DNA of 64,000 nt from Octopus vulgaris (taxonomy: Eukaryota), in the NCBI GenBank assembly GCA_951406725.2, contig OX597816.1:159650001-159714000 (forward strand), written 5' to 3'. The position numbers and the translations under genes were made by a program. Each line of letters starts with the position of its first letter. Positions within the stretch are counted from its first letter, which is position 1. Below the pieces are notes generated by a model. It was given only the letters and a program-made list of their open reading frames with translations, had not been told where the DNA came from and did no database searches. Below are positions 1 to 29,340 of this stretch, one piece after another.

Positions 1-145
1 ACCATGCAGGAAGCATGGAAGTTATATATATATATATATATTGATAGAAATGGTAAGACAACAAAAGAATGAAAGAGACCTCGATATTTTGTAAATAGTG
101 GAATTTATCTGTAAATGTAATATGTGACAGTTATTCGGTAGCCAT

Positions 146-206
146 GATAAAACTCTGAGTTTTGGATGTTGGGGTGGGAATCCATGCCACCATCTCTTCA
201 GTTATC
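146..206 (-). ncRNA. Degenerate type-I hammerhead ribozyme motif
   Basis: Minus strand reads GATAA-CTGAAGA-[GATGGTGG...CAACATC]-CAAAA-CTCAGAG-TT-TTATC. Stem I is GATAA/TTATC, the CUGANGA core is intact, and CGAAA has decayed to CAAAA. Confidence 0.55.
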
Positions 207-243
207 TGGCCATTGGAAAAAATAGCATTTTTTCTGATGGCTG

Positions 244-304
244 GATAACTGAAGAGGTGGCAGTGTGGATATCCACCCCGACATGCAAAACTTGGAGTTT
301 TATC
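244..304 (+). ncRNA. Degenerate type-I hammerhead ribozyme motif (mirror copy)
   Basis: GATAA-CTGAAGA(249-255)-stem II-CAAAA-CTTGGAG-TT-TTATC. Confidence 0.5.
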
Positions 305-389
305 ATGGTTACCGAATAATTATCACATATTACATTTACAGATATATATAAATGTTTATATATATATATATATATACACACATACACGT

Positions 390-635
390 GTGTATGTAGT
401 TCCCTTGTCTTGATATTGTGTGATGGTTGTAAATAAGCATTACCATCATACAAGTAATGTTGGTTAATTCCAGTCTTCTATGAAAAAAAACATGTCTGGC
501 CTCAGGAAAATATTATTTTACTTTGAAACAAGTGAGGGTTGGCATCAGGATGGGTATCCAATCATAGAAAATATCCTACAACAAATTCGGTCAGACCAAT
601 GCAAGCATGGAAAATGGACATTAAATGAGGATGAT
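390..635 (+). mobile_element. SINE family B2 body plus RTE-like tail
   Basis: Matches the body and tail of 10256-10680 and 35340-35690; ends ...gcaagcatggaaaatggacattaaatgaggatgat. Confidence 0.65.
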
Positions 636-1038
636 TAAATATTAGGTTGATTTTAACCATCCACACTTCCAAAAATTTTTTGTCTTGATTTAGAAATGAT
701 TATAATTGAAGATTTCCTTCTCTGTAATTTTAGAGTAAAACATATTTTTTTCATATGATATTGAAATATCCGTTGTATGTCTTCAGCCTCCAAATTTAGA
801 ACACTTGTGCATTTTATTGGAAGAAGTTTCATATTTTTACAAATTTTTGTTATATTTCCCTCTTTTTTTTTTATTTCGCATTTCTTCAATTTTTTTTTTT
901 ATCATTACCAGAAATCCATGTGGAATGGATACTTTTCTAGAAACTTGATTAGGCTTTCTAGAGAAGGAATACTTATTTTGTACATCTGTTTACTGTCAAG
1001 TATCTGATAACTTGAGTATTTAATATCTTATCATGAAA

Positions 1039-1290
1039 ATGTGTGTGTGTGTGTGTGTGTGTATGTATGTATGCGTGTGTGTGTGTATTTATGCATATTT
1101 GTGTGTGTATGTATTTATATGTATGTGCATATGTATATAACATATATAGCTATATATATTATATATTATGTATATCTGTGTTTGTGTGTGTATGTATACA
1201 TATATATATATATATATATATATATATACACACACACACATATACATGTATGTGTGTGTATTTCTATGTAATTTCCATGTGTGTGTGTTC
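1039..1290. repeat. Compound (TG)n/(TA)n/(CA)n microsatellite
   Basis: Seen directly in the sequence. Confidence 0.95.
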
Positions 1291-1614
1291 AGTTTCATAC
1301 AATCATCAGAGGTATTATGCAAAACAAAACATAAAATAAACTGAATATATAATTGAAAAAAACATATATATATATATATATATAATTTGAAGTATACTAC
1401 AGGCTGGTGTGGGTGGCCTGAGAAATGATAAATATTTTAGACAGTAGAAAAGAAAAGTGAATATGAGATAATGGTAACATATACCATATTTACCCATGTA
1501 GAAATCCTTCTCAAATAGAAAGTGGTATTCTTATTTTTTGTCTCTAAAAATCACTAGTTTAGGTAAACTGTTTTTAATAGCAGAACTCAAAATAGATAAA
1601 GCTGTAGATATTTC

Positions 1615-25745: not shown

Positions 25746-25920
25746 ACACACACATATATGTATATATATATATATGTGTATATATATATATATATATATG
25801 TATGTATGTATATGTATACACACACATATGTATATATATGTATGTATGTATGTATATGTATACACACACACATATGTATATATATATATGTATGTATGTA
25901 TATGTATACACACACACAAA
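25745..25920. repeat. (TA)/(TATG)/(CA) higher-order microsatellite
   Basis: Seen directly. Confidence 0.9.
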
Positions 25921-26286
25921 CCATATTTATCGTCTAGATTGAAATCGGGTTATAATTTGCATCCCAGTTTTTCCTATTAAAATCAAGTTTAAAATAACGC
26001 AATACAAGTAAATACAGTGTGTGTCTGTGTCTTTCTATCTGTGTTTGTCTCCCACCACCACTTGACAACAGGTGGTAGTGTGTTCACATCCCCGTTACAT
26101 AGCGGTTTGCTAAAAAGAGACTGATAGAATAAGTACTGGGGTTCATTTGTTTGATCAAAAAGTTCTTCAAGATGATACCCCAATATGGCCGCAGTCAAAT
26201 GATTGAGACAAGTAAAAGGTAATATATATGTGTGTGTGTATATATATATATATATATGTATATATGTATATATATATATATATATA

Positions 26287-26433
26287 TTTCTTTACTACTC
26301 ACAAGGGGCTAAACATAGAGGGACAAACAAGGACATACAAAGGGATTAAGTTAATTACATTGACCCCAGTGCGAAACTGGTACTTTATTTATCGACCCTG
26401 AAAGGATGAAAGGCAAAGTCGACCTCGGTGGAA
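26287..26433 (-). mobile_element. SINE family C, 3' part, embedded in (TA)n
   Basis: Reverse complement of 58555-58699. Confidence 0.8.
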
Positions 26434-27819
26434 TTATATATATATAAACATGTGTGTGATTGTGTATATATTTATACATACACACAGTGCACACACACAC
26501 ACGCAGAGGGAGAGAGATATGTATATAAATATGCAATATTCATATATATACAAATAGAAAATTGTAATAAGTATAATCAGAAATGGAATACAATTTGGAT
26601 GGTTTTCATTTTCTTTTTTTTCTTCCATGAAACAATCATTTCTCTTTAATTAGATCATTAGATCATTGAATCTTTGTAATTTTCCAAAAGAATTTTAAAT
26701 GACTGGATTTTTTTTTCTTTCTGACATGTGAGGGAAAATTTTCCATTCCAAAATAGATTTCGTTGTCATTTGTCATTTGATTCAGAAATAATGTTGTAAT
26801 TTTTTTTTGTTTGAAAAAAACAAATATTGCAAAACTTGAGCATGGAATAAATAACCTACAAGAGAAATTGATGTAATCTATTATATTTAAAACGAGTCAC
26901 TGCTATGTGTGTATCTTATGGGGTATTTTAAGCTGTTTCTTCTTTTAGTTGTTTGGCAGGAAGTTGCAAAATGTATAAAAGTAGTAGCACTGCTTGATAA
27001 GAGAGATAAGAAAAGTAGAGACAAATACTAAGAAGAGGTAACTGCTGTACATGAATTCAGGGAGGTAATACAGTTTAGAATTAAGCATGTATCATCATTG
27101 AAGTCCCCACTGCTATATGCGCCTAAGAAGTCACATTGATTTTCATGTGATTTCAAGTACTTTTAGAACTAGGTCCTTCGATTGGTACTTACTCTTCCTT
27201 ACTCACACACACACACACACACGCATCATCTCTATCTCATTCTTTTTCTTTCTTCCTCTCTCGTGTACCCTACTTCTCTCTGTTTGTCTTCCTGTCTCCC
27301 TATCTATCTCTCCCTTATTGAGATAATCATTTTGGTTCCTTATCTTACTGCTACTACTTCCGCATTCTCTTTATCTCTGTCTCTCGGTCTGTCTGTATGT
27401 CTATCTATCTGTATATCTCTCTGTCTGTCTCCATATACATACATACATACTACATATATATATATATATACACATACATACATACATACATAGATACATA
27501 CATACATACATATATATATATATATATATATATATACACACACACATACATACATACATACATACATATATATATATATATATATATATACACACACACA
27601 TGCATATGCACACACACACAGTGACAGATACACACATGCCAACACATCCCTCTCTGTCTATCTCTCTACAGGTCTTCCTCACTATCTACTCTACCTGTCT
27701 CTATCTATCTATCTCTCTCTCTCTCTCTCCTTCTCTTCTTCCCAATGGACCTCACAAATTGGTCATAATTGACAAATGTGTTGTATGAAGTGATTGCAAT
27801 TTAGTGACTAACACACTAA

Positions 27820-28410
27820 TGCCATCACCACCACTATACCTCTACTACTACTACTACTGAGGGTGCTGCTGCAACTACTTGTTTTACTGATACCGTCACA
27901 AATGCTACTATTACCACCACCACCACTACTATTAGTACTACAACTACTACTAACCATTGCTACTACTCAACATACAACTACTTCTACCAGAACTACTATC
28001 ACTACTTAAAGTACACCCATTATCATTACTAGTACTATTGCTGCTGCTGCTGCTACTACTACTACTACTACTAAGATGACTATCACCAGAATCACCACCC
28101 CTACCACAAATATATTACCACCAAAATCACTGCTACTACTGCCACCACCATCACCACTGTTACCAAAATCACCACCAGCACCATCACAAATACACTACCA
28201 CCAAAATCACCGCTACTGCCGCTGCCACCACCAGCACCACCACTACCACTACCATAATCACCACCACTCTGTTACCAAAATCACCGCAAATATACTACCA
28301 CCAAAACCACCACTACTGCCGCCGCCGCCACCACCACAAATATACTACCACCAAAACCACCACCGCTGCCACGACGACTATCACCAAAATCACTACTATC
28401 AATACTAGCG
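27820..28410. repeat. (ACT)/(ACC) low-complexity tract with recurrent caaatatactaccaccaaaa unit
   Basis: Seen directly. Confidence 0.85.
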
Positions 28411-28529
28411 ATATTCACACTTGCTAATATTGTCTCTTACTGCTTGGTACTGTTTGTTCCTTCCGATGCCAAGACTGCACGACTGTTTGACTGCACATGT
28501 GATTTCTTACTGCAGCTGCTGTCACTCAC

Positions 28530-28547
28530 CACAGTTCTGAATACCAA
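28530..28547 (-). other. Candidate 18-nt microexon
   Basis: Minus strand: ctcaataaaccttcccttttcctgctgcttcAG|TTGGTATTCAGAACTGTG|GTGAGT; no stop codon in any frame; non-repetitive flanks. Confidence 0.45.
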
Positions 28548-29060
28548 CTGAAGCAGCAGGAAAAGGGAAGGTTTATTGAGAAATTTGTAAATTTCTGATA
28601 CCATAGAAGTTCCAATAAATGTTACACAGTTGAAGATGCCAATACACGTAGTAATGATGATGATGATGTTGATGATGATGACGTAAATAGACATCATACA
28701 CGCACATGCACAATCACACACGTATGCATGTGTGTGCATGCATAAATTTACATCTGCATCTCTTTCTCCCTATATATATCATCATCATCATTTAACGTCC
28801 GTTTTCCATGCTAGCATGGGTTGGACGGTTCGACAGGAGTCTGGGAAGCCAGGAGTCTGGGAGGCCAGGAGGCTGCACCAGGCTCATATATATATATATA
28901 TATATATATATATATATATCCACATATATATATATGCATGCATATATATTGCATACACACACAGAGATATATATATATACACACACACACACACACATAA
29001 TGTTATATTTATATATATCTTGTAGCGTTTATCTGTATGTGTGTGTGTATATATATATAT

Positions 29061-29340
29061 CGTTTTGGGATTTGGTTTGCAAGATTCTTTATATGAGTTC
29101 GTGTGTTGAAGCATATTCTGTTGTGTCTGGGGAGAGTCATTCTCTTTTAGTGCCTTATTATTTAACACACTGACCGGTAAAATTTCCACTTCTTTCTTAT
29201 TTTTTATTTTCTATTGAAAAGGTTGTAAGACTCAACGAAAACTTTAGAAAATAAAAAATAAGAAATAAGTGGAAATTTTACCAGTGAGTGTGTTAAATAA
29301 TAAGGCACTAAAAGAGAATGACTCTCCTCAAACACAACAG
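29061..29340. mobile_element. Fold-back element in (TA)n
   Basis: Inverted arms 29118-29340 (gagagtcattctcttttagtgccttattatttaacacac / gtgtgttaaataataaggcactaaaagagaatgactctc); ~57-bp left extension. Confidence 0.8.

What the first reader, a model, noticed from the sequence alone, without database searches (positions are those of the whole stretch)
42..29340. One architecture shared by sequence-unrelated fold-back elements: (TA)n - long hairpin with one-sided extension - microsatellite
Seen: 42-344, 8905-9145, 16491-16780 and 29061-29340 are each a ~190-240-bp inverted repeat with a tiny loop and a ~50-65-bp unpaired extension on one side, abutting (TA)n. 24713-25012 is a ~300-bp hairpin also starting at (TA)n. 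Their sequences look unrelated to each other, and none has transposase-type TIR/TSD ends. Two have CTGA(A/T)GA hammerhead cores in both arms. Known: Penelope-like elements (PLEs) produce inverted 5'-truncated segments, carry minimal hammerheads in their terminal repeats, and are often found in microsatellites. Inference: a class of tiny non-autonomous, hairpin-forming, (TA)n-targeting PLE derivatives, which could also supply dsRNA substrates for ADAR editing if transcribed in an intron.
Basis: partly seen in the sequence, partly recalled or inferred. Interest (0 to 1): 0.75.

Follow-up and report, generated by a model that had tools for sequence, protein, structure and literature searches.

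The report
Two-ended Penelope insertions make hairpins
The five hairpins are short, back-to-back end pieces from five common repeat families, likely left when a Penelope-type jumping-gene enzyme copied the same RNA end twice from two fixed start points; this is a known layout rather than a new hairpin element, although two of the families encode no protein and likely borrow that enzyme.

Summary
The five hairpins are real and unrelated in sequence; each belongs to a dispersed family. They are not a class of tiny hairpin elements. In copies found by the tail alone, the outer ends are fixed and the tip moves (E1 insertions 157-1513 bp); about a third have no inverted arm. E1 and E5 are 3' ends of ORF-bearing Penelope-like elements (PLEs). 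E2 and E3 are ORF-less tandem units (about 640 and 353 bp); E3 has a hammerhead motif, like a retrozyme. A young 899-aa PLE family shows the same layout at kilobase scale. The one-sided extension is the published PLE 'tail'; E4 has one too (about 235 bp, missed). Target-site duplications are 9-15 bp and variable. (TA)n preference depends on the family (E1 25 of 27, E3 1 of 29). Arms of one insertion mostly share subfamily alleles and either arm can be longer, which favours two cDNAs primed from both target nicks and joined head-to-head. Editing and transcription could not be tested. The layout is in print, and this scan reported it several times on other DNA of this genome. Modest additions: the long/short end rule and PLE-type insertion marks on retrozyme-like units.

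The parts
42..347 (-). E1: head-to-head PLE insertion; tail 42-102, hairpin 103-347; 3' end of a family with a C-terminal GIY-YIG-like ORF (Neptune-like, label recalled)
   Evidence: ORF link in L247 and relatives L041, L225, L314
24..41 (.). (TA)n abutting the E1 tail
   Evidence: 25 of 27 family copies have (TA)n here
143..206 (-). decayed type I minimal hammerhead in the tail-bearing arm of E1 (core starts at 201); mirror copy on + from 249; both read AAAA for GAAA
   Evidence: core pattern intact in 28 of 47 long family copies
8905..9145 (+). E2: head-to-head insertion; hairpin 8905-9094, tail about 9095-9145; piece of an ORF-less tandem unit of about 620-650 bp
8859..8901 (.). (TA)21 abutting the tail-less end of E2
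16491..16773 (+). E3: head-to-head insertion; hairpin 16491-16721, tail about 16722-16773; piece of an ORF-less 353-bp tandem unit whose hammerhead lies upstream of the part present here
24708..25245 (+). E4: old head-to-head insertion; hairpin 24708-25016 plus tail of about 235 bp; decayed hammerhead in the arm; partner ORF not found
29058..29345 (-). [quoted passage not shown]
29211..29245 (+). hammerhead-like motif with U3-A8 core forming the loop of E5 (core at 29214, GAAA at 29237); cleavage untested
   Evidence: variant described in PMC4209133

Best explanation
Each hairpin is a single insertion of a Penelope-like element (PLE) in which two 5'-truncated copies of the family's RNA 3' end stand head-to-head, likely because the enzyme primed reverse transcription from both nicked target strands. 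SHOWN: fixed outer ends, one long (with tail) and one short; free tip; either arm can be longer; variable 9-15-bp target duplications (E3, E5); arms of one insertion mostly share subfamily alleles; E1 and E5 continue into PLE ORFs; E2 and E3 are ORF-less tandem units. INFERRED: a PLE protein, likely a dimer, nicks AT-rich DNA on both strands about 10-15 bp apart; each 3'-OH primes cDNA at one of two fixed internal start sites on RNA from one source locus (the stretch between the two sites is the tail); both cDNAs stop early and are joined at their 3' ends with 0-4 nt of overlap or a short filler; repair fills the complement. The 200-300-bp hairpins are the short end of a length range, enriched because truncation clusters just 5' of the hammerhead (E5: 16 of 41 limits at -188 to -200). 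E2 and E3 RNAs would be copied in trans by a PLE protein. The hairpin copy itself is likely dead.
For: Tail-anchored copies (30 loci each, 27/26/29 aligned): inverted arm with the short end in 18 of 27 (E1), 15 of 26 (E5), 18 of 29 (E3); with the long end in 0, 1, 0; other ends 1, 0, 3; none in 8, 10, 8. E1 spans 157-1513 bp. E2 with an internal query: 13 long, 13 short, 4 other ends among 30 loci; all 9 rows with an opposite arm (8 distinct loci) pair a long or near-long end (0 to -26) with a short one. TSD score >=9 in 21 of 34 E3 and 7 of 11 E5 microsatellite-free hairpins, against 0.4% of 1122 and 0 of 110 cross-locus controls. ORF links: E5 end follows a Pfam GIY-YIG hit (E 1.8e-7) and lies downstream in the same orientation in 9 of the 12 best ORF loci, one being the query locus; L388 adds RT motifs (weak RVT_1, E 0.006); E1's L247 arm reads into a frameshifted endonuclease end. 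Young family (899-aa frame, 97-100% identical): 19 of 20 fetched loci have opposite arms, 17 of those 19 exactly one tail of about 160 nt that equals the head of the next tandem unit, all 17 in (TA)n; 14 of 17 junctions have -4 to +16 nt between arms. Arm allele concordance, tail-anchored copies only: E5 84 of 106 vs 0.62 shuffled, E3 22 of 28 vs 0.53, E1 19 of 25 vs 0.47, E2 38 of 50 vs 0.65; young family 44 of 57 vs 0.14. In vitro, an anole PLE cuts and extends both strands, starts at two sites that bound the tail, and is predicted to be a dimer (PMC11167929).
Against: No partner ORF was found for E2, E3 or E4 in 135 loci (six weak hits, only L371 inspected and found to be a separate neighbouring element; L201 unresolved), so their mobiliser is inferred from insertion marks alone. 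E1's RT core was not seen in the held loci. 14 of the 20 young-family loci were chosen because they had opposite-strand hits, so 19 of 20 is not a frequency. About a fifth of diagnostic sites disagree between arms, and 2 of 17 young insertions (L315, L319) have discordant haplotypes, so one template is not universal. Tails here (46-235 nt) are longer than the published 30-40 bp. TSDs could not be scored for E1 or E2 (all flanks microsatellite). 5' limits come from BLAST ends and can be cut short by low-complexity sequence. Rfam gave no hammerhead hit (at gathering; none among the 150 of 181 rows shown).
Confidence: 0.85

Rival explanations
1. Same PLE origin, but the inverted arm arises by snap-back: one cDNA folds on itself and the RT copies it, stopping a tail's length short of the target (self-priming, as proposed for Adineta PLEs).
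For: Explains shared alleles between arms and short overlaps at junctions; self-priming on an antisense template was proposed in PMC3846280 (passage).
Against: Snap-back needs the tail-bearing first strand to reach furthest 5'; the tail-less arm reaches further in 4 of 9 (E1), 5 of 15 (E5), 10 of 18 (E3) and 4 of 7 (E2) copies, by over 1 kb in L247. Discordant arm haplotypes (L011 5 of 10 sites, L315, L319) need two templates. Solo copies with the short end exist (13 short ends among 30 E2 loci; L239 relative of E1).
Confidence: 0.1
2. One reading: tiny non-autonomous, (TA)n-targeting elements that are transcribed and re-inserted as complete hairpins.
For: Searches with a whole hairpin return dozens of near-equal-length hairpins; tips cluster near the hammerhead; E2 and E3 are ORF-less.
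Against: That uniformity is query bias: tail-only searches give variable tips and solo copies. Arms co-vary within a copy instead of carrying arm-specific alleles. E1 and E5 are ends of ORF-bearing elements. E3 avoids (TA)n (1 of 29).
Confidence: 0.04
3. Fold-back DNA transposons or MITEs, or hairpins made later by gene conversion or replication slippage in (TA)n.
For: Long inverted repeats; short size; high copy number.
Against: The termini are not inverted repeats of each other (tail on one side); TSDs vary from 9 to 15 bp; rare non-CpG variants of one arm are seldom in the other (4 of 64, 6 of 111, 5 of 115, 4 of 32), so arms were not homogenised after insertion; continuity with RT/GIY-YIG ORFs.
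Confidence: 0.01

Closest known systems
Endonuclease-positive PLE insertion unit with inverted 5'-truncated pLTR and tail (Arkhipova et al. 2013, PMC3846280, passages read; Craig et al. 2021, PMC8557442, passages read)
   Same: Head-to-head inverted copy, extension at one end only, 8-10-bp TSDs, (TA)n preference in Naiad and Hydra clades, tandem units
   Different: Tails of 46-235 nt instead of 30-40; both arms reduced to about 100 nt in the window copies; a strict long/short pairing counted here, described there as optional
Poseidon element of Anolis in vitro (Frangieh et al. 2024, PMC11167929, parts 1-2 of 4 read)
   Same: Two RT start sites bounding the tail, AT-rich targets, both strands cut and extended, predicted dimer
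   Different: There the start sites lie inside the ORF start; the text read does not describe joining of two cDNAs; partners here have Zn-finger-like linkers (Neptune/Nematis type; clade labels from motifs, no tree built)
[quoted passage not shown]
   Same: Type I minimal core with weak palindromic helix III; U3-A8 variant; pairs 100-700 bp apart on opposite strands already reported in Schistosoma
   Different: Window copies of E1 and E4 are decayed; E2 has only the first half of the core in order
Metazoan non-LTR retrozymes (Cervera and De la Pena 2020, PMC7229834, passages; Li et al. 2026, 10.64898/2026.07.22.740005, abstract, Results part 1 of 2 and Discussion)
   Same: ORF-less tandem unit of 353 bp (E3) with a type I hammerhead; PLEs proposed as mobilisers
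   Different: Those texts argue from co-occurrence and pLTR similarity ('inverted' has 0 occurrences in PMC7229834); E3 shows PLE-type insertion marks directly. Its hammerhead is of the minimal kind; circular RNA not shown

Membership tests
EN+ Penelope-like elements | Single ORF with RT and GIY-YIG endonuclease upstream of the terminal repeat | tested here: met
   E5: GIY-YIG Pfam E 1.8e-7, RT motifs in L388. E1: endonuclease end and thumb/linker region only
EN+ Penelope-like elements | Same ORF test for E2, E3, E4 | tested here: not met
   E2 and E3 units are ORF-less tandems; none found for E4, one weak hit unresolved. They work like PLE cargo but are not autonomous PLEs
EN+ Penelope-like elements | Variable 5' truncation with an adjacent inverted truncated copy | tested here: met
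   (E1, E2, E3, E5); E4 family too diverged for counts, inverted arms seen in L199, L204, L211
EN+ Penelope-like elements | Tail extension at one end | tested here: met
   longer than published
EN+ Penelope-like elements | Variable-length TSD | tested here: met
   E3 21 of 34, E5 7 of 11; not scorable for E1 and E2; not tested for E4
EN+ Penelope-like elements | Hammerhead motif in the terminal repeat | tested here: inconclusive
   Pattern intact in 28 of 47 E1, 6 of 10 E3, 3 of 4 E5 long copies; seen by eye in E4 relative L200; incomplete in E2; no Rfam hit; cleavage untested
EN+ Penelope-like elements | Clade placement by RT phylogeny | not tested
   No reference set held; Neptune-like and Nematis-like labels rest on recalled motifs and passages of PMC8557442
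Non-LTR retrozymes | ORF-less tandem monomers of a few hundred bp with a type I hammerhead | tested here: met
   E3: 353-bp unit, tandem in L327, L342, L331, L336, L353. E2: tandem and ORF-less, but no complete core
Non-LTR retrozymes | Self-cleavage and abundant circular RNA | not testable with these tools
   Only contigs were served
MITE / TIR DNA transposon | Inverted repeats at both termini, fixed length, fixed TSD | tested here: not met

The most novel reading that the evidence does not exclude
PLE integration is obligately two-ended: one enzyme dimer starts one cDNA at each of two fixed sites and fuses them head-to-head, for its own RNA and for retrozyme-like passengers alike. In this genome that has made at least some 60,000 ready-made hairpins, which would be the main source of the long double-stranded RNA behind the record A-to-I hyper-editing reported for octopus.
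Probability: 0.3. Interest if true: 0.6.

Novelty: new member of a known kind. Interest (0 to 1): 0.3.

Why it matters
Mostly as annotation: such hairpins are easily mistaken for MITEs, miRNA precursors or new elements, and are PLE stubs. Two points go a little beyond the papers read. First, the long/short end pairing, independent arm lengths and shared haplotypes give a concrete, testable model for the steps after priming that PMC11167929 leaves open. Second, an ORF-less hammerhead repeat (E3) carrying PLE-type tails, inversions and TSDs is genomic evidence for the proposed PLE-retrozyme partnership. If transcribed, the hairpins would be ADAR substrates: PMC5625713 (passages) reports the highest hyper-editing and a very high dsRNA-forming fraction in octopus but left it out of the repeat-class analysis, and found lizard Penelope heavily edited.

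Tried and rejected
RNA evidence: no RNA holder listed on record (contigs only, RNA status guessed). Host gene: 60 stop-free frames of 85 aa or more gave only a LINE-type RT and zf-RVT at 31420-33018; short exons would be missed, so the intron question is open. Rfam: 0 hits at gathering in the window; the E-value scan of six loci showed microsatellite-driven miRNA matches and no hammerhead in the rows shown. Pfam did not recognise the young 899-aa protein; it is called a PLE from RT and GIY-YIG-like motifs read by eye. E2 hammerhead: tried type I, II and III arrangements by eye; helix II fails in all. Whole-hairpin queries were rejected for tip statistics because they select for equal tips. An endonuclease fragment upstream of E2 in L371 proved to be a separate element. 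Longer stretches around partner ORFs were not obtained, so full-length E1 and E5 partners are not shown end to end. Paper searches listed no paper on octopus PLE hairpins or on joining of two PLE cDNAs; subscription papers, Repbase and the supplement of PMC8557442 (consensus list, may name these families) were not seen.
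Full report
Setting. The window lies at G000:C3:159650001-159714000 in a 2.8-Gb assembly with 30 large contigs. It is likely an octopus; this rests on recalled repeat sequences, genome size and earlier notes of the scan, not on a named record. I call the five elements E1 (42), E2 (8905), E3 (16491), E4 (24708) and E5 (29058).

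Observation. All five hairpins are real (E 4e-31 to 4e-75; z -15 and -17 for the two tested) and mutually unrelated. Each is a dispersed family: first-look candidates 3983, 649, 2604, 43 and 1609 (not copy numbers). The extension is conserved family sequence on one side only. E4 has one as well, about 235 nt. Written with the extension at the 3' end, every copy reads: inverted arm without tail, tip, arm with tail.

Are they fixed hairpin elements? Whole-hairpin queries return look-alike hairpins, but that is selection. I searched again with tail plus outer arm only (30 loci each, of which 27, 26 and 29 aligned to the reference). The outer end of the inverted arm is fixed (mode -61 E1, -55 E5, about -54 E3, -46 E2); the tip is not. 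E1 insertions span 157-1513 bp. Inverted arm with short end / long end / other / none: E1 18/0/1/8, E5 15/1/0/10, E3 18/0/3/8. With an internal E2 query, which does not favour either end, 13 copies end long, 13 short and 4 elsewhere, and all 8 distinct head-to-head loci pair a long or near-long end with a short one. Truncation points cluster just 5' of the hammerhead (E5: 16 of 41 limits between -188 and -200; E1 around -170 to -199), which explains the typical 200-300-bp size; BLAST ends may add to that clustering.

What they derive from. E5 copies L217 and L239 run, through a 3' UTR of about 750 nt, into an ORF end that Pfam calls GIY-YIG (E 1.8e-7). That protein has 9093 candidates in the genome; in 9 of the 12 best loci (one is the query locus) the E5 end follows in the same orientation, in 1 only inverted, in 2 not at all, and L388 extends the frame to 619 aa with RT motifs and a CX4CxxC linker. 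E1's longest inverted arm (L247) reads from a frameshifted endonuclease end through a UTR of about 1.1 kb to the short end, and relatives at 82-83% identity carry the ORF end about 300 nt upstream. E3 is different: a 353-bp unit, tandem in several loci, without an ORF, holding a minimal type I hammerhead pattern (intact in 6 of 10 long copies). E2 is an ORF-less tandem unit of about 620-650 bp (longest stop-free frame 78 aa). No partner was found for E2, E3 or E4 in 135 loci searched with two PLE proteins.

Insertion marks. In hairpin copies free of microsatellite, direct repeats of 9-15 bp flank 21 of 34 E3 and 7 of 11 E5 insertions, against 0.4% and 0% in cross-locus controls; sequence and length vary. 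(TA)n follows the tail in 25 of 27 E1, 19 of 26 E5, 7 of 23 E2 and 1 of 29 E3 copies (the E5 query ended in three target-like bases). So (TA)n targeting is a family property.

A young control family. A PLE fragment in a random stretch led to a family with 97-100% identical copies and 899-aa open frames. Of 20 loci fetched (14 chosen for opposite-strand hits, 6 for full frames), 19 have head-to-head arms, up to several kilobases long; 17 of these have exactly one tail of about 160 nt, identical to the head of the next tandem unit, and sit in (TA)n on both sides; one is complex and one runs off the stretch. Among 17 pairs that passed the filters (L316, L321, L322 dropped), 14 junctions have -4 to +16 nt between arms; arms of one insertion differ by 1.8 sites per 690 nt against 6.8 between insertions, and share 44 of 57 minor alleles (null 0.14), with L315 and L319 discordant. 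The window's hairpins are the same structure with very short arms.

Mechanism. In the old families, too, arms of one insertion share subfamily alleles more than chance (0.79 vs 0.62, 0.79 vs 0.53, 0.76 vs 0.47, 0.76 vs 0.65) but rarely share rare variants, so both arms came from one source lineage at insertion and then drifted apart. Either arm may reach further 5'. Simple snap-back predicts that the tail-bearing arm is always the longer and never of another haplotype; both predictions fail. Two cDNAs primed from the two target nicks at two fixed start sites fit all counts and match the in vitro behaviour of an anole PLE (PMC11167929). The joining step and the dimer are inferred.

Abundance. 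Eighty 10-kb stretches taken at round coordinates hold 66 fold-backs, 2.7% of bases, against 0 in a 200-kb control. Of these, 22 have a one-sided conserved extension, 17 none, 3 both, and 24 have too few homologues in the 2 Mb held. Dropping 4 low-identity pairs of very abundant repeats leaves 18, or roughly 60,000 genome-wide by extrapolation, a rough lower bound.

Comparison with print. The inverted copy, one-sided tail, short TSD and (TA)n bias are described (PMC3846280; PMC8557442; PMC8969392, passages), as are opposite-strand hammerhead pairs 100-700 bp apart and the U3-A8 core (PMC4209133). PLE mobilisation of retrozymes is proposed from co-occurrence and similarity (PMC7229834; Li et al. 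2026). Octopus hyper-editing was not assigned to repeat classes in PMC5625713; PMC9989829 (passages) does not mention Penelope. My reading was set, which showed that the scan has reached the same view on other windows of this genome.

Verdict. Real, PLE-derived, a known kind; the hairpin is a by-product of insertion, not a replicating unit. Interest 0.3.

Noticed in passing
L324 (G000:C24:21622000-21631999) and L276-L325: A very young, probably still active PLE family: 899-aa open frame, unit of about 3.62 kb, copies 97-100% identical in the C-terminal 143 aa, 17609 first-look candidates, inserts in (TA)n; no significant Pfam match. A good substrate for mechanism assays.
   Followed up: partly
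L150:1440-1560 and L356-L385 (E2 family): All three hammerhead core strands are present but in reversed order (cleavage strand, GAAA strand, CUGAUGA strand); helices I and III are complementary (6 bp each, with a C/T-G/A co-change in some copies) while helix II does not form. Either chance, a decayed ribozyme or an unusual knotted or trans arrangement.
   Followed up: partly
window 9138-9145 (E2 tail end) and downstream unit in L156, L157, L162: The E2 long end coincides with a splice-donor-like motif followed by a long pyrimidine-rich tract in the tandem unit; may be a retained intron as in other PLEs.
   Followed up: no
window 7659-7820, 18873-19018, 58952-59214, 63549-63709: Four more fold-backs (146-263 bp) with at most one homologue in the 2 Mb held; probably stubs of further families.
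   Followed up: partly
window 31420-33018 (-): Fragments of a LINE-type element (RVT_1 E 1e-8, zf-RVT).
   Followed up: no
window 57407-57867: Tandem repeat of period 252 (1.8 copies, 88% matches); not examined for a hammerhead.
   Followed up: no
window 7897-8046 / 9324-9473; 18181-18293 / 19363-19475: Inverted pairs of very abundant SINE-like repeats 1.1-1.3 kb apart, a competing source of dsRNA.
   Followed up: no
L023, L183, L185, L241: Rare hairpins with the tail on both sides (exceptions to the long/short rule).
   Followed up: partly
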